From a candidate division CPR2 bacterium GW2011_GWC2_39_35 (GTDB taxonomy: Bacteria; Patescibacteriota; CPR2): a stretch of DNA of 64,000 bases. Of the stretch, positions 20,757 to 60,339 are shown one piece after another; the first letter of the stretch is position 1; every line of letters starts with the position of its first letter. The stretch lies in NCBI GenBank assembly GCA_000995065.1, contig LBWX01000002.1, positions 62,586 to 126,585 of the forward strand, written 5' to 3'. The notes under the pieces were generated by a model. The model saw nothing but the letters and a program-made list of their open reading frames with translations, searched no databases and was not told the origin of the DNA. A program made the translations under genes and the position numbers.

Positions 20757-20772
20757 GTTTTTTAGAGAAGTA

Positions 20773-27538: not shown

Positions 27539-27543
27539 GTAAT

Positions 27544-44133: not shown

Positions 44134-44147
44134 GAAATAGGAAATCA
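44110..44147. repeat. (AGGAAAT)4 heptanucleotide tandem repeat at the recF 3' end
   Basis: AGGAAATAGGAAATAGGAAATAGGAAAT encodes the final EIGNRK residues of RecF and extends past the stop. Confidence 0.7.
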
Positions 44148-44254
44148 AATTGTAACTGCTCACTATCGGTCATTGCGAGCGACCCAAAGGAGCGTGGCAA
44201 TCTTGTTTCGAACATAAAGGGATTGCTTCGTTCCTGCAATGACTAATGGGGTTG
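44142..44254. repeat. GTCATTGCGAG...CTGCAATGAC-family structured inverted-repeat element (copy A)
   Basis: An outer 12-bp stem (GTAACTGCTCAC/GTGAGCAGTTAC), inner GTCATTGCGAG/CCTGCAATGAC arms and an internal GCAATC/GATTGC pair. Confidence 0.6.
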
Positions 44255-44632: not shown

Positions 44633-45802
44633 TCAGGGCTCTAGGCCATGCCACTCAAAGTGCATGGCGTCTGGGTTCCTCCAATCTCCTCCCCAGATAA
44701 ATCCCTTGCTTTTCATAACATCAACAAATCCCGCCGGATATGCGTCTTTATTATAATATCCGGTAACGCTTGGGTTAATGTCAATCGCAATCCCCCACGA
44801 ATGGCGGCTTAAACTGGAGGAAACTACACCTGGTTTAGGCTTGGCATGCCGATATTGATAACCACCACCAGAACTTATTGTATAATTGATTCCGCGGTTT
44901 TTCATTTCTTGCTGTGCTTGTAGCAAGCAAGCGGCTATCTTCTTATTGACAGTATAGTTACGCGTTAGGAAATTAACATTGATTAGGTTTTCAGTTTTCC
45001 ACACTGGAGAATCAGAGTTAGTACCAAATAGCTTTGCCATATCTCCTGCCGAGTAGAACTGTTTTTTTATTGAGCATTCGCCTGTAGTATCGGTATAATT
45101 ACCATTTGTAGATCCTTCATCAGAGTCGACCGAAAAACCATCACTTGATTCACTTTCTATATTATCAAGGCCGCCGCTTGATAGGCCAATCGCCATGGAT
45201 CCCAATAAAACAAAAAAAGCAAAACCGGCAATTATAGCCAACACGACTCCCACTATAGGAGCGGCTGCTGTCGCCTCTACTGCTACGGCGGCCTCTTCGC
45301 CAATTTCGGCTAGTTCTGCTGCAGTTTCAGCGCCTTCCGCGGCCGCAGATTCTGCCGCCGTTTCTTCTTCTGCGACTTCCGGTCCTCTTTCTTCCATATC
45401 GTTCCCAGGACCTTCTATACTATCATCGTCATCATCTTCCGATTCGTCTTCCTCGTAATCCCTATTCCCCATGCCAAAAAGAGGTTCTCGGCCAAGCTTT
45501 CTTCCCATGGCGTCGCTTATCCCGTCCGGATTAGCGGGATCGTTTTTCTCTGCTTCCTTCTTACTCTTCCAGTCGTTAAGGTCTACAACGTTGTCCGGAA
45601 TATCTTCCTCGCCATCGTCGTATTGAGGAGAATCATCGCCCCCGGGTATTACTGTTAACTCTGGTCTAGAAGACGGTGGCTGTCCATCAAGCTGCGGAGC
45701 AGCGCTTCCATCGGCATAAGCCAATAAAAGCCCATAAGGAGCGTTAGATATCCTTTTAAGGTTTTCTAAAACCTTATCTCTTGTGTGTTCCATCCGATTC
45801 AT
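44633..45802 (-). CDS. M15-family (VanY-like D-Ala-D-Ala carboxypeptidase) peptidase with a long acidic N-terminal region and one TM helix
   Basis: C-terminal SRHSWGIAIDINP...HFEW zinc-peptidase motifs. The N-terminus is acidic, low-complexity and GC-rich. Confidence 0.7.
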   Translation of the reverse strand: MNRMEHTRDKVLENLKRISNAPYGLLLAYADGSAAPQLDGQPPSSRPELTVIPGGDDSPQYDDGEEDIPDNVVDLNDWKSKKEAEKNDPANPDGISDAMGRKLGREPLFGMGNRDYEEDESEDDDDDSIEGPGNDMEERGPEVAEEETAAESAAAEGAETAAELAEIGEEAAVAVEATAAAPIVGVVLAIIAGFAFFVLLGSMAIGLSSGGLDNIESESSDGFSVDSDEGSTNGNYTDTTGECSIKKQFYSAGDMAKLFGTNSDSPVWKTENLINVNFLTRNYTVNKKIAACLLQAQQEMKNRGINYTISSGGGYQYRHAKPKPGVVSSSLSRHSWGIAIDINPSVTGYYNKDAYPAGFVDVMKSKGFIWGGDWRNPDAMHFEWHGLEP

Positions 45803-45814
45803 CTTTTACCCAAG

Positions 45815-46171
45815 TTATTTATATAAATCTTCTTCATCAACATCTACGTCCTTTGCCGCAAAGATGATGACATTCTCTTTTGAGGTATCAATACCCTTTT
45901 TCTTTAGATAAGCAAACGCAAGTTGCTTATATTCGGCAAAAGGATTTTTAGTAATAGTTATTGTTACCTTCCCATCCTTTAAATAGCCGATTTTAAAGCC
46001 GTCTTCTTTTAACACACCGCCTACCGAATTATTCACGTCTTGTCTTATTCCCTCTTTTGCTTGCTCAAGTTTTAACTTACGTTGCTTGTTTGAATAAGAC
46101 AAAGCAAACAAAAGGCCTAGGATGATGAGGGTCCCTACGGAGATAGCGATAATTAATTTTTTTCTATCCAT
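45815..46171 (-). CDS. small membrane-anchored protein
   Basis: An N-terminal TM helix (LIIAISVGTLIILGLLFAL). Confidence 0.4.
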   Translation of the reverse strand: MDRKKLIIAISVGTLIILGLLFALSYSNKQRKLKLEQAKEGIRQDVNNSVGGVLKEDGFKIGYLKDGKVTITITKNPFAEYKQLAFAYLKKKGIDTSKENVIIFAAKDVDVDEEDLYK

Positions 46172-46182
46172 AAAGCTTGTCC

Positions 46183-46866
46183 TTAAGTGCTAATTTGAAC
46201 CATCTTATAATGTCTTAGGGTTTGTTCGCAGTAATTAAAGCCGTTGGTGCCACAGGCTTTTCCGGTGCAAGCGCCACAGTAAGACATCCCAATTGCCTCT
46301 ATGCAATCATCGTCATTCCAGTCGGCCACATTGCCAGACGCATCAAAAGTGCAGGCTTTTTTTATGGCCGGATGCCAGGTAGTTTTGCCTTTTATTACAA
46401 GTCCAGCGGCGAGGAAAGCGTCGTAGTAACGGCATCTATCAGGTGCTGTAATCCCGAATTGAGACTCTAACGCCCTAGCCGGACTAGACCACGTGCTATT
46501 CGTAATTTGCATTGGCCCCACTGCACCGGCGAAACTTGTTTCGCAGTCATCATCGCGTGCATTAAGGGAAGGAATATCTTTACCAAAAGTATCCGTGTGA
46601 TGCTCAGTTAGATAGATTGCAGCAATTAAGGATGCCGGAACCTTTGTTTTGCTGCCAGCATCTTTAAAAAGGGTCGCAAAATTTGTCGGTACGACGGTGG
46701 AAAAATTTGTGTTATCAGTAAAGGTGCTAGGATCGATATTAAGCTCCGTAGCGTCCGCGTTGTGAAGTAAGCTTCCGCCGCCCTGACTAAACATTCCTAT
46801 AAACACGAGCGATATTACAAGGATAAACACGCATCCGAGAGCGCTTATCCCATACAGGTGCTTCAC
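46183..46866 (-). CDS. lytic-transglycosylase-like (SLT/VirB1-like) secreted protein
   Basis: A signal/TM N-terminus, the motif ETSFAGAVGPMQIT resembling the SLT E-S...GxMQ core, and a Cys-rich C-terminus. Confidence 0.5.
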   Translation of the reverse strand: MKHLYGISALGCVFILVISLVFIGMFSQGGGSLLHNADATELNIDPSTFTDNTNFSTVVPTNFATLFKDAGSKTKVPASLIAAIYLTEHHTDTFGKDIPSLNARDDDCETSFAGAVGPMQITNSTWSSPARALESQFGITAPDRCRYYDAFLAAGLVIKGKTTWHPAIKKACTFDASGNVADWNDDDCIEAIGMSYCGACTGKACGTNGFNYCEQTLRHYKMVQIST

Positions 46867-48642
46867 TTACTTTCCCTCCATCTCCAAAACTTGCTTTGGA
46901 TTTGTGGTTACAATTTGATCTTCCAAGTACGAGGCCATCATCTGGATTGCCACGTGGTTAAGGCCGGCAAAGAATAAACCTTCTCCAACCTCGGCGTTCA
47001 AAAGAAAATATTTTTCGGCTTCGGTGAGGTTAAAAGTCTTAACAACCATGTCTACGGCGGCCGGATGCTGTTTTAAAAGAAGCGATAAGGAAGAGTTGGT
47101 AACAATCGCTTTGCCATAAGGAGAACCCAAAAAGTCTTCCACGTCTTGGCTGATGGTAGTAAGCCCCAAATAATATTTTCTGGCTCTTTTGGCAATGCTG
47201 AACAAGAACTGGGCGGAATCCTCATGTTTTAATAAGTACCAGGCCTCGTCTACCACCAATATTCGGCGGGTCATCTCGGATTTTACTTTGTTCCAGATAT
47301 AATTAAGAACGATATACATGGCAATCGGCCTTAACTCGTCTTCCAAGTCCCTAATGCTAAACACGACAAACGGGTTGTCGAGATTTATATTAGTTTGTTC
47401 GTTAAATAGGCCGGCGAAAGACCCGGAAGTAAACTTTCGAAGCATAAGGGCTAGTTCATTACCGCCGGTAATGCTTAAAAGCACTCGTTGCAAATCTTCC
47501 ATGGTTGGTGGTTTAAGGTGATGGGTCGAGGGGTCGCTGGTGATGCCTTTTGAGGCATAAGTTTCGATAAGCGCCTTATCTAGGATGTCGTCCTGTTTGG
47601 CATCAAGTTTACCAAAAATAAGTTTCATTAATCCGTGAAGAGTAATGACATTCGATCGGAGAGCATCTCGGCTATCCTCCTTGTTTGCCAATTTCGGCAG
47701 GTCAAAAGGATTGATGCGCTTTGGTGAGTTTAAGGATAAGTTTAGATAACTCCCGCCGACGGCATCGCAAAGCTTTTTGTACTCATTTTCGGGGTCGATT
47801 ATTATAACTTCCGTGCCAAGCATCAGGCTTCTTAATATCTCTAATTTAACGGAATAAGATTTACCGGCGCCCGCTTTGGCCAGGACTACGGAATTGGCGT
47901 TTTCGAGATCAAACCGATCGAAAAGAACCAAGCCGTTATTGTGCCTATTAATTCCGTATAGAATGCCGGTATTAGAAGAAAGCTCGGAACTCACAAAAGG
48001 AAAACAGGTGGAGAGGGCGGATGTGTCCATGTTGTGCAGAATTTTAAGCTTGTCTTTACATAGCGGCAGACATGAATCAAATCCTTGCTCTTGTTGGAGG
48101 TTAGCTTGTTTTACGTAAACAAGCTGGGAGTTTAAAGCGCTTTCCAATTGCTTGGTGGCTTCATCCAGTTCTTCTTTTTCTTTGGCATAGATTGTAAAAT
48201 ATAGGGCAAAATGGAATAGCTTGGATTCGCCGCGGGACAATAAATCTCTTAGAGCTTCTATATCTTGATAAGCTGTTTCTAATTGCGGATCCCGAGGCAA
48301 ACCTTTTTGCGCCTCCATGGTAGCCCGAGACTCAATCTGTCCCACCTTATTTTTTAAGGTTTTCATGATCATCGCCGTATCGATGGGGTAGATAAAAAGC
48401 GAAGTATCCATTGTGATATCAAAGTTGATGATCGGGCTTAGCCACTCCGTGTATAAGTATCTGGGGTAAGTTAAAACAAAGAATGACCTTACGTGGTAAT
48501 TGCCAAGGCGAAGATAATTAAAATTAATCTCAAAAGCTTCGGGGGCAATAATATCCCGTAAGGTAGTTATCCCCTCGCGGTAAACCCTCTGAGCCTCCTC
48601 GATCTCGGCAAAATGATTGTCTTGTTGTTTTTTTCTAAACAT
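46867..48642 (-). CDS. VirB4/TrbE/CagE-family conjugal transfer ATPase
   Basis: Walker A (LAKAGAGKSYS) and Walker B (VVDEAWYLL) in a 591-aa protein. Confidence 0.85.
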   Translation of the reverse strand: MFRKKQQDNHFAEIEEAQRVYREGITTLRDIIAPEAFEINFNYLRLGNYHVRSFFVLTYPRYLYTEWLSPIINFDITMDTSLFIYPIDTAMIMKTLKNKVGQIESRATMEAQKGLPRDPQLETAYQDIEALRDLLSRGESKLFHFALYFTIYAKEKEELDEATKQLESALNSQLVYVKQANLQQEQGFDSCLPLCKDKLKILHNMDTSALSTCFPFVSSELSSNTGILYGINRHNNGLVLFDRFDLENANSVVLAKAGAGKSYSVKLEILRSLMLGTEVIIIDPENEYKKLCDAVGGSYLNLSLNSPKRINPFDLPKLANKEDSRDALRSNVITLHGLMKLIFGKLDAKQDDILDKALIETYASKGITSDPSTHHLKPPTMEDLQRVLLSITGGNELALMLRKFTSGSFAGLFNEQTNINLDNPFVVFSIRDLEDELRPIAMYIVLNYIWNKVKSEMTRRILVVDEAWYLLKHEDSAQFLFSIAKRARKYYLGLTTISQDVEDFLGSPYGKAIVTNSSLSLLLKQHPAAVDMVVKTFNLTEAEKYFLLNAEVGEGLFFAGLNHVAIQMMASYLEDQIVTTNPKQVLEMEGK

Positions 48643-48708
48643 CAGTCGCTTTCACTATGATTTTATATCTCTATTATAACTCGCTATCTCAAAACTCAAA
48701 ACGCAAAT

Positions 48709-49185
48709 GTCAAAACAGTATCTCTCTAAATCCAAATGTCAAAGCTCAAATTTCAAATGAATGTCAAATGCTTAAATATTAAAACTAGCTGTTCCTTATA
48801 ATGCTTGAAAATATTAAAATTAATTCTTGTGCTTCTTTCCATAAATTCCGAGATTGTTCTTTTAGATTAGGATTGGCTACCTGAATCATTCTTAACCAAT
48901 GTTTGGTCTCTTTAGCTTCTTTTTTGCAAATACTTATCTTGTGTTTAAACTCTTTTTTAGACTCTGCCCCATCGGCTTCACAGTAATTGGCCCCAATGCT
49001 AGTTGCTGATCTAACTACCTGAGAGATTAAAGGCAGTGATATTGGGTCTTTTGACATTAAACGAGCAAATCTAATTATATCTTCTCCGAATAAGGCTGTT
49101 CTTTCTTCTAGATCATATTTGGCATTAGTGCTTTGGATTTGATTTGACATTTGTAATTTGGATTTTGACATTAAATTTTTTTAGC
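48709..49185. mobile_element. small element carrying the four-helix-bundle gene between terminal inverted repeats rich in CAAATGTCAAA/TTTGACATTTG
   Basis: The left arm (48709-48775) is the inverted complement of the right arm (49124-49185). Gene-less derivatives lie at 49953-50091, 57558-57740 and 58505-58697. Confidence 0.6.
48785..49171 (-). CDS. four-helix-bundle protein (the TIGR02436-like family encoded in 23S rRNA intervening sequences)
   Basis: FGEDIIRFARLM...SIGANYCEADGAESKKEFKHKISICKKEAKETKHWLRM is the hallmark of this family. Confidence 0.75.
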   Translation of the reverse strand: MSKSKLQMSNQIQSTNAKYDLEERTALFGEDIIRFARLMSKDPISLPLISQVVRSATSIGANYCEADGAESKKEFKHKISICKKEAKETKHWLRMIQVANPNLKEQSRNLWKEAQELILIFSSIIRNS

Positions 49186-49908
49186 CTATATTTCCATCAA
49201 CTCCGTTCCTTCGGGCTTATCTTCGGCGGCCGTTATTATGTTATTCGTTATCTGATCCACAGCTACAAGTTTTTGATTTTGAGCAGTGTCGGGGTTGTAG
49301 CTCGCATAGAATAAATCAATTAATTCCTGTGTGTCTAAAGAGGCGCACCTAAGCTCCATGCCGCTTAGCTGGCCGACTACTACATCCACCCTTTGCATAA
49401 GCTGAATTCGGTTTTCCTCAAAGTTTCCCATATGTACCGGGCCGTTTCCGGCTGGCTTAATGGCGTCTTTTATTTTACTCGCAAATCCGCTAGTTGCCTG
49501 AACTACGTTGGGGTAAAAGGGCACGACTACAAAAAATTTCTTGTCCATAATGTTGGCTACCTCCAAAAGAGATTCGATAAAGGATATGTAGGCGTTTGTT
49601 TGGTCTCTGAGCTGCGGGTTTTTCTGTTTTTTGGCCACCTCGTTCATGTTTTTCATGTAATCTCTTAAGTCCAAGCGCCTTGACCTTATAAGCACTTGAA
49701 TATCAAAAGTGAGGTAATTTAAGAAATTTTGAAAATTAAAGATGATGGCGTCTTTTTCCTTTTCGGATTTTAAGGCAAAATTGACGGACGATACCATCAG
49801 AACGGCTCTTAGCGACCCGTCTTTTAAAACCACCACTCCGTCATGAATCTCCGCAATATCCAAATATTGCTGGGTGCTGGGTCTTTTTGTCTTGCTAGTA
49901 TTAGCCAT
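49186..49908 (-). CDS. hypothetical protein within the T4SS-like cluster
   Basis: A 240-aa protein with no TM segment, positioned between VirB4 and the VirB3-like gene. Confidence 0.4.
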   Translation of the reverse strand: MANTSKTKRPSTQQYLDIAEIHDGVVVLKDGSLRAVLMVSSVNFALKSEKEKDAIIFNFQNFLNYLTFDIQVLIRSRRLDLRDYMKNMNEVAKKQKNPQLRDQTNAYISFIESLLEVANIMDKKFFVVVPFYPNVVQATSGFASKIKDAIKPAGNGPVHMGNFEENRIQLMQRVDVVVGQLSGMELRCASLDTQELIDLFYASYNPDTAQNQKLVAVDQITNNIITAAEDKPEGTELMEI

Positions 49909-49952
49909 GGTTAAATTCTAACAGAACGGCTGATGAGATGCAAAGGGCTTTA

Positions 49953-50091
49953 AAATCCAAAACAGTATCTCTCTAAATCCAAATGTCAAAGCTCAAATTT
50001 CAAATGAATGTCAAATGCTTAAGTGCTTAATTTTTTTAACATTAGTGCTTTGGATTTGATTTGACATTTGTAATTTGGGTTTTGACATTAA
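49953..50091. repeat. gene-less MITE-like derivative of the four-helix-bundle element
   Basis: The first ~65 nt are identical to 48712-48775. The right arm retains the first ~17 codons of the 4HB gene (MSKPKLQMSNQIQSTNV) followed by a stop. Confidence 0.65.
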
Positions 50092-50128
50092 TATTGTTAA
50101 ATTGGTAATTGAAAATTAAAAGATACGA

Positions 50129-50857
50129 TTATTTTTTTGCTTCCTTATTCCCCGTATAGTTTTTCGCCATTTGGATGATGTCGTCATCTGCTAGCTGCAT
50201 CTGATCGGAGTAGTATTTAAAGTCTTTTTTAGGGTCGACGGTGGCGAGGTCGGAGACGGAAGGCTCGGTAGCCATCTTTGGCTTGTGGTGTTCGGCAATT
50301 TTCTCTAGGTATTCTAAAACCATGCCTTTTTTACCTCTTACTTTGTCCTCTAGGGGGTCAATTAGCGTAGTGTCTTCCTTGGTTTCGGTGCCGGGAGAAA
50401 TAACCCTTTTGGCATTGTTATCAATACCCTCTTTGCCCCAGCCTTGATTGTCCACAATCCTAGCTAAATTTTCCAATTGGCTTCTAGCCGGCGGCTCTTT
50501 CGCCACTATTTCTTTGCTTTTATCCTTATTTCCTATTTCCTGCTTCCTATTTCCTGCTTCTTGTACTTCCCTGCTCCAGATTCTTTGGCGGGGTTTTACA
50601 AAGAAGCTAATGGCTGATGCGAACATGACGTCCATGGGCCGGTCGTTTGGTTTAAAAAATCCCAGCATGCCGGCAATAAGCCAAACGGGGCTTATGATGA
50701 AGGCAAAGATAAAGAGGTTCTCGGGATTAATAATCTTGTAGAGGATGGCCGTTACGGCAAAAGCGGCAAATAAAAACATGAACTGCCGCAGGGTAAGCGG
50801 CCCTATTACTTTATCTTCTATATCGATGTTTTCGGGGACTCTATATTGTAGGGACAT
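50129..50857 (-). CDS. VirB3-like (PrgI/TcpD-like) membrane protein with a C-terminal hydrophilic extension
   Basis: An N-terminal two-TM hairpin after a short cytoplasmic segment, located next to VirB4. An (AGGAAAT)-type heptad repeat sits inside the gene at 50523-50557. Confidence 0.45.
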   Translation of the reverse strand: MSLQYRVPENIDIEDKVIGPLTLRQFMFLFAAFAVTAILYKIINPENLFIFAFIISPVWLIAGMLGFFKPNDRPMDVMFASAISFFVKPRQRIWSREVQEAGNRKQEIGNKDKSKEIVAKEPPARSQLENLARIVDNQGWGKEGIDNNAKRVISPGTETKEDTTLIDPLEDKVRGKKGMVLEYLEKIAEHHKPKMATEPSVSDLATVDPKKDFKYYSDQMQLADDDIIQMAKNYTGNKEAKK

Positions 50858-50913
50858 AGTTTATTAATTAATATCTTAAATATTTAAGATACACAGATTT
50901 GTTATCTCCTAAA

Positions 50914-52926
50914 TCATGAACCTGGAGGCGACCACTCACCTTTAGATCCTTCTTCGTTGGAAGTTAGAGTACTCGCACTGCTATTGGCATCCAACATCAA
51001 TTTTATTTGATCCTGCGAAGGAAAGTTTTCATGTCCTCTTATTGCTCTTTTGGGGCTTTGCTCTAAATCAGTATTAAGACCGGCTTTATAATATTTGCCC
51101 AGCACCCTAACAGCTGGAGCATTTTCACCATCTATGTGGTGTACGATTCTCCTGCCTTGTTCATCTAGTTTATACGCGCCCCATCCTTCGACCCATTTCT
51201 TAACTTTGGTATTTTTATCTACTATTTCTGTGCTATCCTCACGTTCATAGTGAATAGTGGGCGGTCGCCTTTCCATTTTGTTGGTTAAGGTTGCAAGACC
51301 AATTCTGCCCTTTTCGAGCTTCTTCATATCCTCGTCGGTAATCTTTTTATCTGCATACAACTTGGAAAGATAGCTAGGCCAACTTTTACGATTGAATGGT
51401 TGACCTTTAGCTTTTTGCTCATTAAAAGACTTGTATAGAAATTCATCGACAGATGTGCCATCTGATAGTTTTTCCTGAAGAACTAGTTCATCTACTTCAG
51501 AAACTGTCCATCCGGCTTGATCGCGACGCCAAACTGAATCGCGATCTACGTTTGCTTCACCACCTATTTCTTTGTACATCTCCTTTTTGCTCAATTCTCT
51601 TTTATCAGGCCTCCATTGGTTTAATCTATCTTCCCTACTATTTAGAGTACCGGCATTAGCAGCTGCCCAAACTTTCTGCTTCTCCTGGCTCGATACGTTG
51701 GCTTCATGCATGTCATCTATATATTGCTGTCTTAAACCTCTCCTCCAGAATCCAAGCTTATTTCTTAACCCAAAGGTTCCTTTGCCGTCACCTTTTCCAG
51801 TCCACGCCTTATTAAAGGCCATTTCACGGCCTTTGCCAAGAGCCTTATTCATTGGCTTGGTAAAGGATGACATGAGTTTGCCACCCAGGCTTTGGGGTGC
51901 GGTAGCGGCAGCTACAAGTAGAGCGATGGCTAGTACCGGCTTGACCCAGAAGGGACCATGTGTCTCCGAGTAAGAATACATGAGCCTCTCCCCGACGCTT
52001 AAGACAAATTCCACGACTGCCCCCATAAAAACCCAGCTTGTAAATGTGCTCCACCATTGGCTTTCTAGTTTTTTGGTAAAAGGGAGAAGTCCCATACCAA
52101 AAGCAATGGGTGAGGCCGCAATTAGAATCCAAAGTACCACGACTCTTATTGCCATAAGTATTGTTACATAAAGGCTGACAATAAAGCCGGCGATAAAGAG
52201 AATAAACACCAGCAATAAGTTTAAGACAGTACCCGTGAGATCATTAAGTCCTTCAGAAAGACTGAAGGCACCTTCGATATTGTGAGTTCCAATGTCTTTA
52301 TTGATATTGATGAGAGATTCGGTAACCACGTTAGCAAAATCAACCACGAAGTTAGCGATAACCCAGCTAAAATTAACCATAATAATGGTTATAAAGAATC
52401 TTGGGAGTAATATCTTGATATCATAATCCCGCATGTTTATTCTTAGCATATTGGCAAAGGCGATGATGATGAGGGCGGCACCGAATAAGGCGTTGGTAAA
52501 GTTTCTGACCATCATCCAGATGCCTTTAAGGGCGGTATCATTGGTGTTTGTAATAACAGAGGCATTTATAAAAGATTTGGTAAGAGAAATGCCATAGGAT
52601 GCAAAGTTAGAAAAAAACCTAGAAGCGACAGTAAATATATTAATAAAGGCGCATTCTGCCGCATCGCCCTTTACGTATGCCAGAAGATCGCAATCGCTAA
52701 CTTCTTTTTGTTTCGGTGGCAAGATGTCTTTGCCAAACATGCTACTGGTATTCTCCTGTTCTTCCCCGATGGAATTAAGAATATCTTCGCCGTATGGTTT
52801 CGGACTTTCTTGGTTAGTAGCTGTATTATCTTCAGTGGCGGTTGCGGTGCCTACTCTCGATAACAAAAGAGGGACGCTTATAAAAAGTGCTAATAAACTT
52901 ATAGTTAGTAGATTTTTCCCTCTCAT
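50914..52926 (-). CDS. VirB6/TrbL-like polytopic membrane protein
   Basis: A signal peptide, an extracellular N-terminal domain, a cluster of five or more TM helices and a long C-terminal tail. Confidence 0.5.
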   Translation of the reverse strand: MRGKNLLTISLLALFISVPLLLSRVGTATATEDNTATNQESPKPYGEDILNSIGEEQENTSSMFGKDILPPKQKEVSDCDLLAYVKGDAAECAFINIFTVASRFFSNFASYGISLTKSFINASVITNTNDTALKGIWMMVRNFTNALFGAALIIIAFANMLRINMRDYDIKILLPRFFITIIMVNFSWVIANFVVDFANVVTESLININKDIGTHNIEGAFSLSEGLNDLTGTVLNLLLVFILFIAGFIVSLYVTILMAIRVVVLWILIAASPIAFGMGLLPFTKKLESQWWSTFTSWVFMGAVVEFVLSVGERLMYSYSETHGPFWVKPVLAIALLVAAATAPQSLGGKLMSSFTKPMNKALGKGREMAFNKAWTGKGDGKGTFGLRNKLGFWRRGLRQQYIDDMHEANVSSQEKQKVWAAANAGTLNSREDRLNQWRPDKRELSKKEMYKEIGGEANVDRDSVWRRDQAGWTVSEVDELVLQEKLSDGTSVDEFLYKSFNEQKAKGQPFNRKSWPSYLSKLYADKKITDEDMKKLEKGRIGLATLTNKMERRPPTIHYEREDSTEIVDKNTKVKKWVEGWGAYKLDEQGRRIVHHIDGENAPAVRVLGKYYKAGLNTDLEQSPKRAIRGHENFPSQDQIKLMLDANSSASTLTSNEEGSKGEWSPPGS

Positions 52927-53055
52927 ATATTAAAGTATAATATAAATAAGTTAAAAATAAAGAAAAACTATTCATAAATAAAAGAAGCAGAGGCAGTAGT
53001 TGGCGCTTTGGTAAGCGGGTCTCATGACCATCAACTACAAATCCTCTGCTTTTTC

Positions 53056-53301
53056 TTACTCCTTCTCGATTTCTGCCTTCATAGAAGACAATTTCTTAAT
53101 GCCGAGATAAGTGGCGGCGGACACGACAAATATGATTATCGCGTCTATGAACAGGCTGGCGCCTGCCTCCGGGTGGGTGGGGAGCAAAGTAATCCCTTGA
53201 AAGATTCCAATGACCGCGAGTGTTATAAATATTGCTGCGAAGAATAACCATGCTCCTTTTGTTTTCTTCATGTCCTCTACACTCCTTTTTCCGATTTCCA
53301 A
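53056..53301 (-). CDS. small two-TM membrane protein
   Basis: An 81-aa protein with two hydrophobic helices. Confidence 0.35.
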   Translation of the reverse strand: MEIGKRSVEDMKKTKGAWLFFAAIFITLAVIGIFQGITLLPTHPEAGASLFIDAIIIFVVSAATYLGIKKLSSMKAEIEKE

Positions 53302-53462
53302 TGAATAATGAGATATTTAAAGGCTTTAGCCTTACTGTTTTCCTTTTTATGTCAACGAGCATCTCTCGTGGGATTAGTATGACAACAATAGCATATTATA
53401 TCTAATATGTCAAGGGTTTTGTGCTGACCCACGTGCGCTTTTTCTAAAAACGTTTTTGAGGC

Positions 53463-53531
53463 GTCATTGCGAATGAAATGAAGCAATCTCATTCGTCTCA
53501 TGGCAGGATCGCCACGCTTCGCTCGCAATGA
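53463..53531. repeat. GTCATTGCGA...CTCGCAATGAC structured inverted-repeat element (copy B)
   Basis: GTCATTGCGAATGAAATGAAGCAATCTCATTCG...CGCTCGCAATGAC. Confidence 0.6.
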
Positions 53532-53653
53532 CCATTACGGGTTTATCTAAAAAGTGAGTGCTTCAGAGATTTATTCCGATATCATAAATACTTAAACCAA
53601 ATAAAAAAACCTCCAGATTCACTGAAGGTTTTTTGTGATTTTATTCTCAGCTA

Positions 53654-54052
53654 TTACTGTGGATTAACAGGTACCGGTGTATCTATAAATTGTTCCGGCT
53701 GTCCACCGACAAGATTAATGACAATCTTAACAATCACATATGCAAGAAGAATAATGATTAGGCCGATTACTGAATATAAAATAGTATTTTTGGCTGATTC
53801 CACGGAGTCGGCATTACCGGCTGAAATAACATATCTTAAACCGCCGATGATAAGAAAGATGACGGCAATAATGGCAGAAACGCTTAGGAGCAGCGTTACT
53901 ACGTAATTCAAGATATCATAGATTGTATTCCACTCTTTTTTGGAAGCGAATCCAACTCCTTCCGGAATGTTTTGTGGGTCTGCGAAGGCAATACTTGGCA
54001 AAAACATTAATGCTCCTGCAATAAATCGATAATAATACTTTTTCATTTTCAC
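53654..54052 (-). CDS. VirB2/TrbC-like T4SS pilin
   Basis: A signal peptide followed by two hydrophobic helices joined by GGLRYVISAGNADSVESAKNT. Confidence 0.6.
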   Translation of the reverse strand: MKMKKYYYRFIAGALMFLPSIAFADPQNIPEGVGFASKKEWNTIYDILNYVVTLLLSVSAIIAVIFLIIGGLRYVISAGNADSVESAKNTILYSVIGLIIILLAYVIVKIVINLVGGQPEQFIDTPVPVNPQ

Positions 54053-54087
54053 CTCCTTTGGAATGGTTTTGGATTTGTTATTTTATT

Positions 54088-55407
54088 TTATAATCCCGGT
54101 AAGTTGTAGTTAAAGAAATTAGCCAAAAATAGGATAGCGGCTTTAGCAACTAATATTATTATGAGACCCACTACGGCCGCTGTCAACCCACTTTTAGCCG
54201 CCATAATTGAGTCCATATTGCCGGCAGACGTTACCATTCTGATGCCGCCAAGCAGTATAAAAATAATAGCCACAATAGCCGCAATGCTTAAAAGAAACTG
54301 GGTCAAGGTAATAATAAGCACTGTTACCTTGTTTAAGGTCGGTACCTCGTCGCATCCCAAAAAGCCAATTATGCTCTTTTTATTCTGGTCGAGCGAGCAT
54401 TCGAACTCAGGCTTTTCGGTCAGTGGCTTAGATATCTCATGATTGAAGGTAGCGTCTTTTGAGAACAGATTCCCCCATTCACTAATAACGTTACTCGTGC
54501 CTTGTAATTGCTCTACTTTTTGTTCATCGGTAAGTGCAGGGTTGCTTATGATTTTCTGAGCCTCGTCTAATTTATTTTTTAGGCCTATAGTTTCCTTATC
54601 TATCTTTTCTTTATCATAAAATAAGCTGCAGTTATTTTGGAATCCCGTAATCGCTTTATTCGCTTCTTCAATTGTAAACTCAGTAAAATCTAAGGTACCG
54701 CCCTTTATTAAGGCGTCTAGTTGGCTAGTTTGCTTTTTGATTTCGTCTAAATAGTAGCCTGTGCATTGAGTATATTGGTCATATATGGATTGTTTTGTTT
54801 TCGGTGCCGCCCATCCTTTTATTTTATAGGGAGGCGTTTTAGATGTTAAGCCTGTGATAGTAGTTCCTCCGTCTATCTTCTTTTCAATGTCATCAGGGAG
54901 ATTTTGGTTTTTGTAGTTATAGACGGGTATATTATTTTTACTACCATTCCTGCTAAGAGTAACCGCTAAACTACCGTCATTTTTTATAAAGAGATAGAAG
55001 TTTTCTTTGGTAGGAGCGTACATTTTGTATAAATAGCCATGCGTGTCATTACTATCTATATACCAGTCGATAAAAATTCCGTCTTCAGCGGTATTGCTGT
55101 AGTTGCCTTTTTCAGTCCCATTTTCGCCCAAATAAGCAAATTTTATCTCATAGTTTTTATCGTCGACCGTAGTAAATGTAATTCCAGCAATTCCTGATCC
55201 GCTTTTATCTGATGCTTTTCCCTCTGAAAAGCTCAATTTAGTTTTAGTATTTCCTAACATAGAACTATAATCTTCTACGCTAGGAGAGGCAAACAGTATA
55301 CCTGGTGTTAATATTAGAAAGGATAAGGTGAGTAAGATTAATGGTAGAAGTTTATTCATGCTTGTAGCTACTTTTTTTGATTTTGAGACGCTGCTGCTCT
55401 GTGACAT
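54088..55407 (-). CDS. surface protein with a C-terminal VirB2/TrbC-like pilin domain
   Basis: A ~330-aa extracellular N-terminus plus a C-terminus (GGIRMVTSAGNMDSIMAAKSGL...) paralogous to 53654..54052. Confidence 0.55.
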   Translation of the reverse strand: MSQSSSVSKSKKVATSMNKLLPLILLTLSFLILTPGILFASPSVEDYSSMLGNTKTKLSFSEGKASDKSGSGIAGITFTTVDDKNYEIKFAYLGENGTEKGNYSNTAEDGIFIDWYIDSNDTHGYLYKMYAPTKENFYLFIKNDGSLAVTLSRNGSKNNIPVYNYKNQNLPDDIEKKIDGGTTITGLTSKTPPYKIKGWAAPKTKQSIYDQYTQCTGYYLDEIKKQTSQLDALIKGGTLDFTEFTIEEANKAITGFQNNCSLFYDKEKIDKETIGLKNKLDEAQKIISNPALTDEQKVEQLQGTSNVISEWGNLFSKDATFNHEISKPLTEKPEFECSLDQNKKSIIGFLGCDEVPTLNKVTVLIITLTQFLLSIAAIVAIIFILLGGIRMVTSAGNMDSIMAAKSGLTAAVVGLIIILVAKAAILFLANFFNYNLPGL

Positions 55408-55408
55408 T

Positions 55409-56737
55409 TTACCCTCCGAACCAATTTAAGCCCACCGTATTAAATATTACTTTAGCGAGCAGAAGAACGGCCATACTGGTAATGGCGCCGAGTATCCAGG
55501 ATTTGGCATTCGAGATAGAGTCCGGGTTGCCGCCGCTAGTCATGTATAAAAAGCCGCCAAAAGTGGTAATAAGAATAGTTAAGAGGAAGCCGGCAAAAAG
55601 ACCCCAGTTGAAAACTTTATTGGTATAATCAGTAATAGCGTTTTTGCCGCTAAAACAGCCGAATAAGGTCTCAACGCCATCACACCCGGGCTTCTTATTA
55701 TCCTTGGCCGCGTTATTTTTGCACTCGGTTGCTCTTTCCTTCCATTCGCTTTCGCTTTTTGGAGCACCTTCTTTGTATATGCAATCGCAAATATCGGAAT
55801 AACCCCTTGTGGCACACTCATTCTGCCTCGATTCATTAAGTCTGCCAAGTGAGTCTTGTTCGGCTTGATTGGCCCTATCTAGCTTGTAGTAAGCATTTAA
55901 TACGGCCTTTAGATTATCGGATTCCCGTATCGGAATAACATTTGTTGACCCATTACTATTACAAAGGAGAGAAGCATTCTTGAAATTGTAGGAAGTTTGG
56001 TCGGTTCCCGCTGACCAGGGGCTCTGAATATCTATGGTGTCTCCTTTGGCCGAATTAAAGCTCCAGTCTCTGGTAACGAATAATATTGGTTTTCCGTTTT
56101 GTCTGGCATTCATATTATCTTTTATCTCGGCGTTTGTTTCTGCAGTTGTTGCTTCTCTTAAACCCTCTTTCATTTTAAAAACTTCGCCGTTATCGCTTGT
56201 AATTTGGATATCCGAAGGATTCAGAGCCAAATCCCATGAAAAAGTATCGCCACTATTGTAGCAAGACTTCTTAACATCATTCTTTGGTGCTAATAATGTT
56301 ATGGTCTGAATTGCTTGATCTGACCATCCGCCAATACTGCTAAAAGTATAGTGATATATTCTAGCACTAGCATTTGTGGTTAAATTCATAGCGGAGGGAA
56401 GATTAGACGATTGAAATTCGATATAATAAACATGCATCACATCGAAACTAAGCCTTTTTTCCCAATATTCATATCGGTAATAAGCGTTAGCGCTCAAACC
56501 GCCAGAAGCTACGTTCGGTCCTTTCATGCCCCCGATATCATTATTGACGGTCAAACTGTTTCCGAGCTCATCAAAGAGAAATGTTCCCAAGGGTCCGGTT
56601 ATTGTTTCGTAGTCATCGCTTAGTTGGTAGTTATCGGAGGCTTGAGCAGATGACAAAAAAAGGGGGGAGAATAATGCGATAGTTGCAATAAGTAAGGACG
56701 TTATTAGAGTTTTAATTAGTTTGGCGACGATACTCAT
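55409..56737 (-). CDS. surface protein with a C-terminal VirB2/TrbC-like pilin domain
   Basis: A signal peptide, a Cys-containing extracellular domain and a C-terminus (GGFLYMTSGGNPDSISNAKSWIL...) of the same pilin-like type. Confidence 0.55.
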   Translation of the reverse strand: MSIVAKLIKTLITSLLIATIALFSPLFLSSAQASDNYQLSDDYETITGPLGTFLFDELGNSLTVNNDIGGMKGPNVASGGLSANAYYRYEYWEKRLSFDVMHVYYIEFQSSNLPSAMNLTTNASARIYHYTFSSIGGWSDQAIQTITLLAPKNDVKKSCYNSGDTFSWDLALNPSDIQITSDNGEVFKMKEGLREATTAETNAEIKDNMNARQNGKPILFVTRDWSFNSAKGDTIDIQSPWSAGTDQTSYNFKNASLLCNSNGSTNVIPIRESDNLKAVLNAYYKLDRANQAEQDSLGRLNESRQNECATRGYSDICDCIYKEGAPKSESEWKERATECKNNAAKDNKKPGCDGVETLFGCFSGKNAITDYTNKVFNWGLFAGFLLTILITTFGGFLYMTSGGNPDSISNAKSWILGAITSMAVLLLAKVIFNTVGLNWFGG

Positions 56738-57018
56738 GTTCCCATATTATCATACCGGTCTTTTATTTATCAATAAAAAGCCTATTTATCAAGGATCCGA
56801 TATCCTTTGATAATTAAAGTAGATATTCGAATCTTTAAGTCTAAATTTTCATAAAAAATAAATTTATCTAAAGAACTAGGTTTAAAGGATTTGGTAAATG
56901 TTTAAATTAAGTAAGAACGAGTCTTTAATATTAGATGTTAAAATAAAAGCACATAAATTAAGCAGCCATTTTAAGGCTGCTTAAAGGTTTATTACTTTTT
57001 GTTAACCGTTTATTGATC

Positions 57019-57557: not shown

Positions 57558-57740
57558 ATTAAAATCCAAATGCCAAAGTTCAAATTCCAAATGAATGACC
57601 AATGACTAAATTTTAAATTTTTAAGCATTGAGAATTAGGCCTTCGGATCTGAGGTCTTCGACCGTGAGGCTCAGACCGAATCGGCTCAGGCTCGAAGAGG
57701 CTTAATTTGGCATTTGGAATTTGAGCTTTGACATTTATAT
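57558..57740. repeat. MITE-like element related to the 4HB-element arms, with a GC-rich structured core
   Basis: AATCCAAATGCCAAAGTTCAAATTCCAAATGAATG and its inverse AATTTGGCATTTGGAATTTGAGCTTTGACATTT flank a GC-rich hairpin at 57640-57700. Confidence 0.55.
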
Positions 57741-58504: not shown

Positions 58505-58697
58505 GGTTAATGTCAAATGACAAAATCCAAATTTCAAATGAATATTAAATGAATTAATGTCAAATAATTACAATCTCCTTATTCTTTTAAATAAATCTAA
58601 AAAGAGTTTCATGTTTTGACCATTCATATTTTTGTATTACTTAAGATTTGGAAATTAGAATTTGATTTGATATTTGACATTTGAGCTTTGACATTAA
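58505..58697. repeat. MITE-like element related to the 4HB-element arms
   Basis: AATGTCAAATGACAAAATCCAAATTTCAAATGAATATTAAATG...TTGATTTGATATTTGACATTTGAGCTTTGACATT. Confidence 0.55.
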
Positions 58698-60318: not shown

Positions 60319-60339
60319 TAACCCTCCAAGATAATTATA

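What the first reader, a model, noticed from the sequence alone, without database searches (positions are those of the whole stretch)
44633..56737. T4SS/conjugation-like cluster with three pilin-domain paralogs, two fused to large extracellular domains
A run of minus-strand genes makes up the cluster: an M15 peptidase, a small membrane protein, an SLT-like hydrolase, VirB4, a hypothetical protein, a VirB3-like protein, a VirB6/TrbL-like protein, a small membrane protein, and three genes whose C-termini share a VirB2/TrbC-like two-helix pilin domain (GG(L/I/F)(R/L)Y/M..S.GN.DS...AK).

Two of the three pilin-domain proteins carry N-terminal surface domains of about 330-360 aa. They may be adhesin-pilin fusions.

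No VirD4 coupling protein, relaxase, or VirB8/9/10/11 component is visible in the window. PilB/GspE and ComF lie nearby. The apparatus may function in DNA uptake or host-cell attachment rather than classical conjugation.
Basis: partly seen in the sequence, partly recalled or inferred. Interest (0 to 1): 0.6.

Follow-up and report, generated by a model that had tools for sequence, protein, structure and literature searches.

The report
Patescibacteria T4SS locus with giant pilins
This is the chromosomal, non-conjugative type IV secretion gene cluster already described for ultrasmall Patescibacteria (CPR) bacteria; the only part not yet described is that two of its three pilin genes carry large, fast-evolving outer domains that may recognise the host cell.

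Summary
Window 44633-56737 (minus strand) encodes, in transcription order:
- three PF18895 pilin-domain proteins (442, 439 and 132 aa)
- a 2-TM protein
- a VirB6-like protein
- PrgI/VirB3
- a TrsD-like protein (VirB4 N-domain homolog)
- an inserted four-helix-bundle gene
- VirB4
- a 1-TM protein
- a membrane-anchored M15 peptidase

The organism is candidate division CPR2 bacterium GW2011_GWC1_41_48, and the locus lies beside dnaA-dnaN-recF.

This is the "Patescibacteria T4SS" already published (Wang 2023; Quinonero-Coronel 2025). Published features include the pilin arrays, the separate TrsD, the lysozyme and peptidase after virB4, the absence of a relaxase, and the location near oriC. The order VirB6-PrgI-TrsD-VirB4, with a nearby pilin array in about half, recurs in about 70 of 80 related loci.

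The papers I read do not describe the N-extended pilins. Each has a signal peptide, an ectodomain of about 330 aa, and a C-terminal pilin hairpin. The ectodomains have no homolog among 1.84 billion representative proteins, not even in a sister species whose VirB4 is 81% identical. The first gene of an array is usually the longest (18 of 26 arrays).

An adhesin or minor-pilin role is plausible but untested. AlphaFold could not model the ectodomain of the 442-aa pilin, the one submitted.

The parts
55409..56737 (-). pilL1: 442-aa N-extended pilin. Signal peptide (AQA|SD), orphan ectodomain of about 330 aa with 8 Cys, a beta-hairpin/Cys loop with a TxFG motif, and a C-terminal two-helix T4SS_pilin domain (about residues 366-434).
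   Evidence: PF18895 E 1e-8. TM topology. AlphaFold pilin domain pLDDT 75-92, ectodomain below 50. All 1196 hits among 1.84e9 representatives fall on residues about 307-442 only.
54088..55407 (-). pilL2: 439-aa N-extended pilin. Signal peptide (LFA|SP), orphan ectodomain of about 320 aa, and a C-terminal pilin domain (about residues 360-428).
   Evidence: PF18895 25.5 bits, just under the gathering score. Pilin domain 45% identical to CPR2 pilin P0004, with no similarity in the N-region. Found by the family HMM. Topology.
53654..54052 (-). pilS: 132-aa canonical short VirB2-like pilin (signal peptide AFA|DP plus 2 TM). Candidate major subunit.
   Evidence: PF18895 E 6e-12, TrbC E 1e-5, NCBIfam Mbov_0395 pilin-like E 8e-9. 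59% identical to the sister-species ortholog.
56746..56773 (-). Promoter-like site directly upstream of pilL1 (TTGATA-16-GATAAT).
   Evidence: Consensus match only.
53604..53634 (-). Intrinsic-terminator-like hairpin (13-bp stem plus T run) 20 nt after the pilS stop. It would end or attenuate the pilin transcript.
53385..53413 (-). Promoter-like site (TTGACA-17-TATTGT with TG) upstream of the machinery genes.
   Evidence: Consensus match only.
53056..53301 (-). Small 2-TM membrane protein (about 71-81 aa), with no homolog in 80 related loci.
50914..52926 (-). VirB6/TrbL-like polytopic membrane protein (670 aa) with a hydrophilic C-terminal extension of about 300 aa.
   Evidence: Pfam TrbL E 0.014. 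41% identical to the syntenic CPR2 protein that carries a precomputed TrbL_3 hit. Homologs sit at the same position in 53-60 ORFs of related loci. TM segments.
50129..50857 (-). PrgI-family (VirB3-like) 2-TM protein, 242 aa.
   Evidence: PF12666 E 7e-12. Same position in 64-69 related loci.
49958..50098 (-). 'Empty' palindromic repeat element in the PrgI-TrsD spacer. It has the same arms as those flanking the 4HB gene.
49186..49908 (-). TrsD-like protein: a separate polypeptide homologous to the N-terminal domain of full-length VirB4.
   Evidence: NCBIfam VirB4 families, positions 3-134 (E 5e-7 to 8e-10), and TrsD E 7e-6, all below curated cut-offs. Homologs directly upstream of VirB4 in 70 loci. 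Described in PMC12102498.
48785..49171 (-). Four-helix-bundle (23S rRNA IVS protein family) gene inserted between TrsD and VirB4. It is flanked by inverted repeats 48712-48751 and 49142-49181. Probably a passenger element rather than a T4SS part.
   Evidence: TIGR02436 E 9.5e-22, PF05635 E 1.2e-15. Repeats. Found at this position in none of the 80 related loci.
46867..48642 (-). VirB4 ATPase (591 aa) lacking the N-terminal domain. Walker A (AKAGAGKS) and Walker B (ILVVDEAW) are intact.
   Evidence: NCBIfam CD1110 family E 3.5e-116, positions 179-733 of 752. 48-81% identical to 80 CPR VirB4s. Motifs read from the sequence.
46183..46866 (-). Membrane-anchored SLT/GH23-fold (lysozyme-like) peptidoglycan hydrolase. 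Functional VirB1 analog. Invariant E88 (LTEHH), GPMQ motif, 8 Cys in the ectodomain.
45815..46171 (-). 118-aa single-TM protein with a small ectodomain.
   Evidence: Weak similarity to ORFs at comparable positions in some related loci, including an Ig-like (Big_5) protein in L001.
44633..45802 (-). Membrane-anchored M15 (VanY-like) peptidase: acidic N-terminal region, TM at about 183-212, C-terminal catalytic domain with SRHSWGIAID and MHFEWH motifs.
   Evidence: PF13539 E 1.7e-16. PHROG endolysin hits. TM.

Best explanation
The region is the chromosomal Patescibacteria-type T4SS of candidate division CPR2 bacterium GW2011_GWC1_41_48. It is a monoderm machine derived from the MPF_FATA class and lies next to the replication origin.

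Shown by the analysis:
- There are two predicted transcription units. One is a pilin unit, pilL1-pilL2-pilS, with its own promoter-like site and a strong terminator-like hairpin. The other is a machinery unit: a 2-TM protein, VirB6-like, PrgI/VirB3-like, TrsD-like, VirB4, an SLT-fold glycosidase, a 1-TM protein and an M15 peptidase.
- No coupling protein or relaxase is nearby.

Inferred:
- VirB4, together with the separate TrsD-like N-domain protein and PrgI, energises a VirB6 channel in the single membrane.
- The two membrane-anchored wall hydrolases open the peptidoglycan locally, as VirB1 does in other systems.
- The Sec-exported pilin hairpins are extracted from the membrane and polymerised into a VirB2-type filament or conduit that contacts the bacterial host of this presumed epibiont. 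The substrate (protein, nucleotides, DNA, lipids) is unknown.
- The short pilin is the bulk subunit.
- The two N-extended pilins are low-copy subunits. They are probably incorporated first, which would place them at the tip. [quoted passage not shown] This would explain why these domains diverge beyond recognition while the pilin module stays 45-59% identical between sister species.
For: Identity of the system:
- Family hits for VirB4, PrgI, pilins, the TrsD-like protein and the M15 peptidase.
- The order VirB6-PrgI-TrsD-VirB4, with a nearby pilin array in about half, in about 70 of 80 CPR loci.
- Near-identical synteny, including recF-dnaN-dnaA, in L084, and a conserved pilin-VirB6-PrgI block in the sister CPR2 genome.
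- Agreement with the published description: TrsD next to virB4, pilin arrays of 2-11 genes, lysozyme and peptidase after virB4, no relaxase, proximity to dnaA (PMC12102498). The system is essential in Southlakia epibionticum (PMC10633639).

Pilins:
- SPase-I-type signal peptides plus two C-terminal TM helices in all three.
- A confident helix-loop-helix model for the pilin domain.
- An N-terminal extension would point outward, by analogy with TraA, whose N terminus 'extends out' of the F pilus (PMC5018250).

Hypervariable ectodomains:
- All 1196 hits among 1.84e9 representative proteins fall within the C-terminal ~135 residues, i.e. the pilin domain and a short stretch before it.
- Against the sister species (VirB4 81% identical), the pilin domains are 53%, 45% and 59% identical, while the N-regions show no similarity and differ in length.
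- Among 17 long pilins, 103 of 136 pairs are similar in the pilin domain, against 6 pairs in the N-region.

Array position: the first-transcribed pilin is the longest in 18 of 26 arrays.

Operon signals.
Against: - No filament made by a Patescibacteria T4SS has been seen (PMC12206443; PMC12857230).
- The link from PF18895 to solved VirB2/TraA pilins is weak. TrbC scores just below its gathering score. A family profile retrieves no solved pilin. The Foldseek match to the CedA1 pilus is not significant.
- The ectodomains match no adhesin family, and AlphaFold could not model the one submitted. 'Adhesin' therefore rests only on topology, divergence and gene order.
- A 35-kDa domain on every subunit would not pack on a VirB2-type pilus, so the low-copy or tip role is an assumption.
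- The rest of the genome could not be searched for a T4CP or relaxase.
- The VirB6 assignment rests on weak sequence evidence. The TrbL_3 hit on the ortholog was not reproduced with the Pfam copy used here.
Confidence: 0.55

Rival explanations
1. The long pilin-domain proteins are not filament subunits. They are surface proteins that use the VirB2-like helical hairpin only as a membrane anchor. They could serve as cell-surface adhesins, or as structural parts of the T4SS channel or stalk that stand in for the missing VirB5/VirB8/VirB10-type components.
For: - The ectodomain is too bulky for stoichiometric packing in a pilus (inference).
- No VirB8/9/10 was detected in the locus, and VirB8 is rarely detected in CPR.
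- The family also contains proteins with C-terminal extensions and with 2-8 tandem pilin domains, which are hard to reconcile with simple polymerising subunits.
- No CPR T4SS pilus has been observed yet.
Against: - The pilin module of the long proteins keeps the family's invariant residues (GG...S.GN.DS..AK) as well as the short pilin does, which suggests the same interactions.
- The long pilins are co-transcribed, and nearly translationally coupled, with the short pilin (gaps of 1 and 35 nt).
- The long-first order is conserved across arrays.
Confidence: 0.25
2. The N-terminal region of about 330 aa is a pro-region or a separately functioning secreted domain. It is cleaved from the pilin module near the conserved Cys-loop/TxFG motif, so the mature pilins are all short.
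For: - Known VirB2/TraA/TrbC pilins undergo leader removal and further processing (established knowledge; PMC9905601).
- A conserved T-x-F-G motif and a Cys-Cys loop lie exactly at the boundary between ectodomain and pilin domain in the pilL1 subfamily. This segment is modelled as a beta-hairpin.
Against: - There is no hydrophobic h-region or AXA site at the boundary, so signal peptidase I cannot cut there (sequence).
- No dedicated protease gene such as TraF is present in the locus.
- A disposable pro-region would not be expected to be maintained at 150-450 aa, with ordered-looking, Cys-containing sequence, in many lineages.
Confidence: 0.1
3. The apparatus is a DNA-uptake machine, like H. 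pylori ComB or the archaeal Ced/Ted systems. It would cooperate with the neighbouring ComF and PilB genes to import host DNA as a source of nucleotides or genes.
For: - The minimal VirB2/VirB6/VirB4 composition resembles Ced/Ted (PMC9905601).
- VirB4 gives a weak CedB hit (E 2e-15).
- ComF and PilB are conserved neighbours in two CPR2 genomes, and comF is common near T4SS genes in class ABY1.
- Nucleotide acquisition through the T4SS has been proposed (PMC11665869).
Against: - The CedB score (56 bits) is far below the family cut-off of 700.
- The VirB4 clade is reported as sister to conjugative MPF_FATA, not to Ced/Ted.
- In S. epibionticum the T4SS is essential while comEC-dependent competence is dispensable, so the two are functionally separable.
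- ComF and PilB belong to the type IV pilus / competence pathway, and their adjacency may be coincidental.
Confidence: 0.12
4. It is part of a classical conjugative element (ICE) whose relaxase, coupling protein and oriT lie elsewhere in the genome.
For: - VirB4 belongs to a family named for conjugative transposons (CD1110).
- T4CP homologs occur in many CPR genomes away from virB4.
- A serine recombinase island lies 13 kb away, at 22-31.4 kb.
Against: - The locus sits between recF/dciA and Hsp20 in the core oriC region, with conserved synteny in distantly related CPR genomes.
- GC content is not atypical.
- No relaxase or T4CP was found among the ORFs scanned in the 64-kb window, or in the next 10 kb.
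- Relaxases occur in only 103 of 3,035 CPR genomes.
- The recombinase island carries restriction-modification genes, not transfer genes.
Confidence: 0.04

Closest known systems
Patescibacteria-clade T4SS (Southlakia epibionticum SEML1_0006-0019; survey by Quinonero-Coronel et al. 2025, PMC12102498; Wang et al. 2023, PMC10633639)
   Same: - VirB4 lacking its N-domain, with a separate TrsD-like protein directly upstream.
- PrgI/VirB3 and VirB6.
- A tandem array of divergent PF18895/VirB2-like pilins.
- Lysozyme-like and peptidase genes after virB4.
- No relaxase or T4CP nearby.
- A chromosomal position near dnaA/dnaN.
   Different: - Two of the three pilins here carry ectodomains of about 330 aa. 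These are the largest N-extensions among 26 arrays examined. The texts I read do not mention this architecture.
- A four-helix-bundle gene is inserted between TrsD and VirB4 (0 of 80 other loci).
- The pilin genes are co-directional with the machinery genes, not divergent as in most Saccharimonadia loci.
MPF_FATA conjugative T4SS of Gram-positive bacteria (pCF10 Prg, pGO1 Trs, C. difficile CTn2 CD1110 family)
   Same: - Monoderm architecture.
- VirB4 of the CD1110 family (above the NCBIfam cut-off), PrgI, a TrsD-type protein, a VirB6-like channel protein, and cell-wall hydrolases.
   Different: - Those systems have a relaxase, a T4CP and oriT, and use surface adhesins such as PrgB instead of VirB2 pilins.
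- Here there is no relaxase or T4CP in the locus, and there are three pilin genes.
VirB2/TraA/TrbC conjugative pilins of diderm T4SS (F, pED208, T-pilus, RP4)
   Same: - Sec signal peptide plus a two-helix hydrophobic hairpin with a short polar loop.
- Encoded next to VirB3/VirB4/VirB6 homologs.
- The TrbC Pfam model is hit at E 1e-5.
   Different: - Known pilins mature to about 60-80 residues, and some are cyclised. I know of none with a folded N-terminal domain of several hundred residues.
- Sequence similarity is below family thresholds.
- Polymerisation has not been shown for any CPR pilin.
Archaeal Ced/Ted DNA-import systems
   Same: A domesticated, relaxase-free minimal set of VirB2-like pilin, VirB6-like channel and VirB4-like ATPase, used for something other than plasmid export.
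   Different: - Only a weak VirB4 similarity (CedB 56 bits against a cut-off of 700).
- No PrgI, TrsD or hydrolases in Ced/Ted.
- The direction and substrate of transport are unknown here.
Minor or tip pilins with bulky domains in other filament systems (type IV pilus minor pilins such as CofB; T2SS GspK)
   Same: The concept: a pilin-fold module that integrates into the filament, fused to a large domain that caps the tip or mediates adhesion. Such subunits are encoded with the major subunit and present in low copy.
   Different: - An unrelated pilin fold and assembly machine (type IV pilin against VirB2-type).
- This resemblance is recalled from general knowledge and was not tested here.

Membership tests
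Patescibacteria-clade T4SS (MPF_FATA-related) | VirB4 ATPase related to CPR / MPF_FATA VirB4 | tested here: met
   NCBIfam NF045971 (CD1110 family), 389 bits against a cut-off of 325. 48-81% identical over the full length to VirB4 of 80 CPR genomes. No phylogeny was built.
Patescibacteria-clade T4SS (MPF_FATA-related) | Separate TrsD-like (VirB4 N-domain) gene next to virB4 | tested here: met
   49186-49908 matches VirB4 N-terminal positions and TrsD. Homologs lie directly upstream of VirB4 in 70 loci. Here a 543-nt spacer (48643-49185) carrying the 4HB gene separates them.
Patescibacteria-clade T4SS (MPF_FATA-related) | PrgI/VirB3 and VirB6 membrane components adjacent | tested here: met
   PrgI E 7e-12. 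For VirB6 the direct hit is weak (E 0.014), but orthology, synteny and topology support the assignment.
Patescibacteria-clade T4SS (MPF_FATA-related) | Array of VirB2-like (PF18895) pilin genes near virB4 | tested here: met
   Three tandem genes.
Patescibacteria-clade T4SS (MPF_FATA-related) | No relaxase or T4CP associated; chromosomal, often near dnaA | tested here: met
   None found among the ORFs scanned in the window or in the next 10 kb. dnaA-dnaN-recF-dciA lie immediately adjacent. The whole genome was not searched.
Classical conjugative T4SS / ICE | Relaxase, VirD4-type coupling protein and oriT | tested here: not met
   Absent from the ORFs scanned in the 64-kb window and the next 10 kb. 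The rest of the genome is not testable with these tools.
Diderm MPF_T-type T4SS | VirB7/9/10 outer-membrane core, VirB8, VirB11, VirB5 | tested here: not met
   No Pfam or NCBIfam hits in the locus.
T4SS_pilin (PF18895) / TrbC-VirB2 (PF04956) | Score above the Pfam gathering threshold | tested here: met
   PF18895: pilS 45.9 bits and pilL1 35.6 bits (gathering score 26.6). pilL2 scores 25.5, just below, but is supported by BLASTP E 2e-11 to a family member and by a family HMM. PF04956: pilS 26.1 bits against 27.9, not met.
VirB2-type pilus subunit (functional) | Polymerises into an extracellular filament | not testable with these tools
   Only a helical-hairpin prediction. No solved pilin was retrieved by the profile. 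Foldseek was not significant.
SLT / GH23 lytic transglycosylase (VirB1 analog) | Lysozyme-like fold with a catalytic Glu at the end of the first core helix | tested here: met
Peptidase M15 (VanY-like) | Pfam M15_4 above threshold, with Zn-ligand motifs | tested here: met
   61 bits against a cut-off of 25. SRHSWGIAID and MHFEWH motifs are present.
Ced/Ted DNA-import system | CedB/TedB-type ATPase with CedA/CedA1 | tested here: not met
   CedB 56 bits against a cut-off of 700; CedD 17 bits.
Diversity-generating retroelement target | TR/VR repeat pair and a reverse transcriptase near the variable gene | tested here: not met
   No repeat involves the pilin genes. No RT was found among the ORFs scanned. 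The Avd-like 4HB gene is explained by a repeat-flanked insertion.

The most novel reading that the evidence does not exclude
The N-extended pilins are modular host-recognition subunits. Each is an exchangeable, rapidly diversifying receptor-binding ectodomain covalently fused to a VirB2-type pilin module. It is incorporated first, and therefore sits at the tip of a T4SS filament in a monoderm. This would make them the first pilus-integrated adhesins known for any type IV secretion system, and a genomic read-out of host range in Patescibacteria. The rule that the first pilin gene of an array is N-extended (18 of 26 arrays) would then be general, with CPR2 as the extreme case.
Probability: 0.3. 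Interest if true: 0.7.

Novelty: new variant of a known kind. Interest (0 to 1): 0.4.

Why it matters
The Patescibacteria T4SS is essential for epibiotic growth in the one species where it has been tested, yet its substrate and mode of action are unknown and no filament has been seen.

If the bulky, hypervariable pilin ectodomains are the host-contacting part of this machine, three things follow:
- They give a concrete handle for experiments such as antibodies, domain swaps and pull-downs of host receptors.
- They give a sequence marker for predicting host specificity from metagenomes.
- They would extend the known repertoire of VirB2-type pilins, until now seen only as peptides of about 7 kDa, to large multidomain subunits.

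The cluster as a whole is an ordinary member of a published system and needs no further attention.

Tried and rejected
1. Broken or split virB4 pseudogene: rejected. The 240-aa ORF is the TrsD-type protein, which is separate from VirB4 in 70 related loci and in the literature.

2. Structure of the ectodomains: AlphaFold on the 442-aa protein gave pLDDT below 50 for residues 32-352, because no homologs exist. The second structure job was therefore spent on the SLT-like ORF rather than on pilL2. Foldseek with the low-confidence model was uninformative.

3. Homologs of the ectodomains: none found in
- two word-indexed searches of 5.8e9 proteins
- one exhaustive HMMER scan of 1.84e9 representatives, run with the 442-aa pilin only
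- Pfam, NCBIfam and PHROGs
- PDB sequences
- 80 related loci
The only full-length matches were the protein itself.

4. DGR-driven hypervariability: no TR/VR repeats.

5. Recognised adhesin domains in long pilins of other genomes: none in 10 tested.

6. Sequence-profile link from CPR pilins to solved VirB2/TraA structures: only spurious hits.

7. Apparent strain variation in pilL1 in another assembly (L086): this is a 10-N scaffold gap, and the sequence is 99.6% identical.

8. The TrbL_3 hit on the VirB6 ortholog, taken from the precomputed table, was not reproduced with the Pfam copy available here.

9. The supplement of PMC12102498 did not mention this genome in the text that is held.

Full report
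**What is there**

On the minus strand between 44633 and 56737 lies an uninterrupted run of genes. In transcription order they are:
- pilL1 (55409-56737, 442 aa)
- pilL2 (54088-55407, 439 aa)
- pilS (53654-54052, 132 aa)
- a small 2-TM protein (53056-53301)
- a 670-aa polytopic membrane protein (50914-52926)
- a PrgI-family protein (50129-50857)
- a 240-aa protein (49186-49908)
- a 128-aa four-helix-bundle protein (48785-49171)
- VirB4 (46867-48642)
- a 227-aa membrane-anchored protein (46183-46866)
- a 118-aa single-TM protein (45815-46171)
- a 389-aa membrane-anchored M15 peptidase (44633-45802)

Most of the gene gaps are between 0 and 56 nt. The exceptions are four spacers of 129, 142, 220 and 352 nt, and the last three contain repeat elements.

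The flanks are dnaA, dnaN, recF and dciA on one side, and Hsp20, a ComF-like PRTase, PilB/GspE and tRNA genes on the other. The 442-aa protein is 100% identical to UU65_C0002G0187 of candidate division CPR2 bacterium GW2011_GWC1_41_48.

**Check of the observation**

The family assignments hold:
- M15_4: E 1.7e-16.
- PrgI: E 7e-12.
- VirB4: NCBIfam CD1110 family, 389 bits against a cut-off of 325.
- PF18895 T4SS_pilin in all three pilin genes (45.9, 25.5 and 35.6 bits; gathering score 26.6).

Each pilin has an SPase-I-type signal peptide and two C-terminal TM helices. The pilin domains of the long proteins begin at residues 363 and 370.

The VirB6 assignment has only a weak direct hit (TrbL E 0.014). 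It is supported by 41% identity to the syntenic CPR2 protein, by its conserved position in related loci and by its topology.

One correction is needed. The 'hypothetical protein' is two genes:
- The 240-aa protein matches the N-terminal 130 residues of full-length VirB4 families and TrsD. VirB4 itself covers only positions 179-733 of the 752-position family model.
- The 128-aa gene belongs to the 23S-rRNA-IVS / four-helix-bundle family (TIGR02436, E 9.5e-22).

**Comparison with related loci**

A scan of one genome per species with VirB4 returned 80 CPR loci at 48-81% identity. Searching their ORFs with the window proteins and a pilin HMM showed that the order VirB6-PrgI-TrsD-VirB4 is nearly universal, with a nearby pilin array in about half of the loci. 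TrsD abuts VirB4 in all 70 loci where upstream sequence is available. Pilin arrays hold 2-8 genes.

A locus from another CPR genome (L084) has the same layout down to an SLT-like gene that starts at the VirB4 stop codon. It continues with a small protein and a large amidase/M74 peptidase, and then with convergent recF-dnaN-dnaA. In the sister CPR2 genome the block PilB-ComF-Hsp20-pilin(251)-pilin(344)-pilin(126)-VirB6-PrgI-4HB is conserved, but the VirB4 half lies on the other side of recF, on the opposite strand.

**What is already known**

The locus is the 'Patescibacteria T4SS'. Quinonero-Coronel et al. 2025 (PMC12102498) describe:
- a CPR-specific VirB4 clade related to MPF_FATA
- TrsD next to virB4 in 1,664 cases
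- PrgI/VirB3 and VirB6
- 441 VirB2-like pilin arrays of 2-11 genes, averaging about 25% identity
- near absence of relaxases
- proximity to dnaA/dnaN
- comF nearby in class ABY1

Wang et al. 2023 (PMC10633639) showed by Tn-seq that the T4SS, its pilin series, and the peptidase and lysozyme genes after virB4 are essential for epibiotic growth of Southlakia epibionticum. Reviews state that the function is unknown and that a pilus is only hypothesised. Cryo-ET of a Saccharibacterium has not assigned any filament to the T4SS.

It also agrees with the absence of a T4CP or relaxase among the ORFs scanned in the window, and from the 10 kb beyond it.

**The part not covered by the literature I could read: the N-extended pilins**

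None of the texts mentions pilins fused to large domains.

The two ectodomains appear to be orphans:
- Word-indexed searches of 5.8e9 proteins found only the proteins themselves, plus two CPR2 proteins (342 and 344 aa) that match in the pilin region.
- An exhaustive HMMER scan of 1.84e9 representatives with the 442-aa protein gave 1196 hits, all confined to the C-terminal ~135 residues. The 439-aa pilin was not run through this scan.
- PDB sequence searches found nothing.

Against the sister species, whose VirB4 is 81% identical, the three pilin modules are 53%, 45% and 59% identical. The N-regions are not alignable and differ in length: 330 against 150 aa, and 320 against 240 aa.

The architecture itself is not rare. 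Among the 150 best family representatives:
- about 37 have a single C-terminal pilin domain behind an N-extension of 100-457 aa
- 46 have 2-8 tandem pilin domains
- 52 are canonical short pilins

Ten long pilins from other genomes also lack any Pfam domain in the extension. Among 17 long pilins, 103 of 136 pairs are similar in the pilin module, but only 6 pairs are similar in the N-region.

In 18 of 26 arrays with three or more genes, the first-transcribed pilin is the longest. The median start of the pilin domain is residue 83 in the first gene, against 36-46 in the second and third. The window has the largest extensions of all 26 arrays, and it has two of them.

**Structure**

AlphaFold on the 442-aa protein modelled the pilin module confidently. 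The model shows a beta-hairpin at 354-363, a helix at 367-399, a five-residue loop and a helix at 405-434, with pLDDT 75-92. The ectodomain was left below pLDDT 50, as expected without homologs.

A family profile does not retrieve solved VirB2/TraA pilins. Foldseek with this model is not significant, although the Aeropyrum CedA1 conjugation pilus has the highest match probability in the list (0.54). 'Pilin' is therefore a well-supported family label (PF18895) and a topological inference. It is not a demonstrated function.

**Most likely mechanism**

Shown:
- the gene content
- the topology
- two promoter-like sites (56773-56746 and 53413-53385)
- a strong terminator-like hairpin immediately after pilS (53634-53604)

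These signals suggest a highly expressed pilin transcript and a separate or attenuated machinery transcript.

Inferred:
- VirB4, together with TrsD and PrgI, powers extraction of the membrane-inserted pilin hairpins and their assembly on a VirB6 platform.
- The membrane-anchored SLT-fold glycosidase and M15 peptidase open the wall locally.
- pilS forms the bulk of a filament or conduit.
- pilL1 and pilL2 are low-copy subunits whose ectodomains face outward. By analogy, the TraA N terminus 'extends out' of the F pilus (PMC5018250). They would bind host surface structures, which would explain their extreme divergence.

The rivals are a membrane-anchored surface or channel protein, a cleaved pro-region, a DNA-uptake machine, and a true ICE. 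They are listed with their evidence in the rival explanations.

**Verdict**

The undescribed feature is the hypervariable N-extended pilin architecture and its preferred first position in arrays. It is worth a modest follow-up, but its function could not be tested here.

Noticed in passing
window 48711-49181; 49958-50098; 57562-57740; 58507-58697: A palindromic repeat element of about 140-180 nt occurs four times in intergenic spacers of the T4SS/ComF/PilB region. In one copy the two arms (48712-48751 and 49142-49181) enclose the four-helix-bundle (23S rRNA IVS-family) ORF, like an rRNA intervening sequence but inside an mRNA operon between TrsD and VirB4. The 'empty' copy in the PrgI-TrsD spacer shares a 65-nt stretch that is 100% identical. 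As RNA it folds only moderately better than shuffled sequence (z = -1.95). No other of the 80 CPR loci has a gene between TrsD and VirB4.
   Followed up: partly
L001 14490-14849; L004; L049 2008; L084 5036-5329: The same operon spacers attract small selfish-looking genes in other genomes. The sister CPR2 genome has the 4HB gene right after PrgI, at the point where the cluster is rearranged (the VirB4 half lies on the opposite strand beyond recF). L049 has a 4HB gene upstream of PrgI. L084 has a 97-aa GIY-YIG gene between PrgI and TrsD.
   Followed up: partly
window 44169-44182, 53463-53532, 60470-60555: The motif GTCATTGCGAGCGA occurs 5 times, against 0.27 expected. It occurs as two inverted pairs (in the pilS-machinery spacer and downstream of PilB) plus a single copy after recF. 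A 50-nt inverted repeat (44169-44218 and 60506-60555) brackets the whole 16-kb T4SS-Hsp20-ComF-PilB block, which could promote inversion.
   Followed up: partly
proteins P0013, P0022, P0036, P0061, P0142 and others: Many PF18895 family members in public data are single polypeptides with 2-8 tandem pilin domains (up to 933 aa), i.e. covalently concatenated VirB2-like hairpins. Others carry C-terminal rather than N-terminal extensions (L051, L054). The papers I read do not discuss these.
   Followed up: no
window about 22000-31460: A low-GC island (31-35% against about 40%) carries an HTH-N6/N4 DNA methylase (25442-27538), a ResIII/SNF2 helicase (27544-29922) and a large serine recombinase (29919-31427). 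The recombinase gene overlaps tRNA-Asn (31386-31460) at its 3' end. A SocA/Panacea antitoxin-like gene lies at 22382-22834. This is probably an integrated restriction-modification island.
   Followed up: partly
window about 10200-21950 (e.g. 13746-13818, 15476-15548, 17712-17784, 19546-19618, 20777-20817): Each minus-strand gene in this stretch is followed, right after its stop codon, by a conserved repeat of 70-130 nt (core TTGGCTCCCCGGATCGGGCAATCTTCGAACTTTTGGAGC). The genes include purD, RhuM, an AAA_15/AbiEii-like ATPase, a HATPase-DUF4325 protein and hypothetical proteins. The layout resembles a cassette array or a family of 3' structured elements. No integrase was identified next to it.
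   Followed up: partly
window 44096-44144, 60327-60375, 50528-50563: GGAAATA heptamer repeats lie at the 3' end of recF and downstream of PilB. An inverted copy inside the PrgI gene encodes a repeated (Q)EIGN(R)K peptide.
   Followed up: no
L086 2861-2870 (= window pilL1, about residue 270-400 region): An independent assembly of the same population (99.6% identical over 10.9 kb) has a 10-N scaffold gap inside pilL1, which splits the gene call into 271-aa and 44-aa pieces. This may be only an assembly artefact, or it may hint at population heterogeneity in the ectodomain-coding region.
   Followed up: partly
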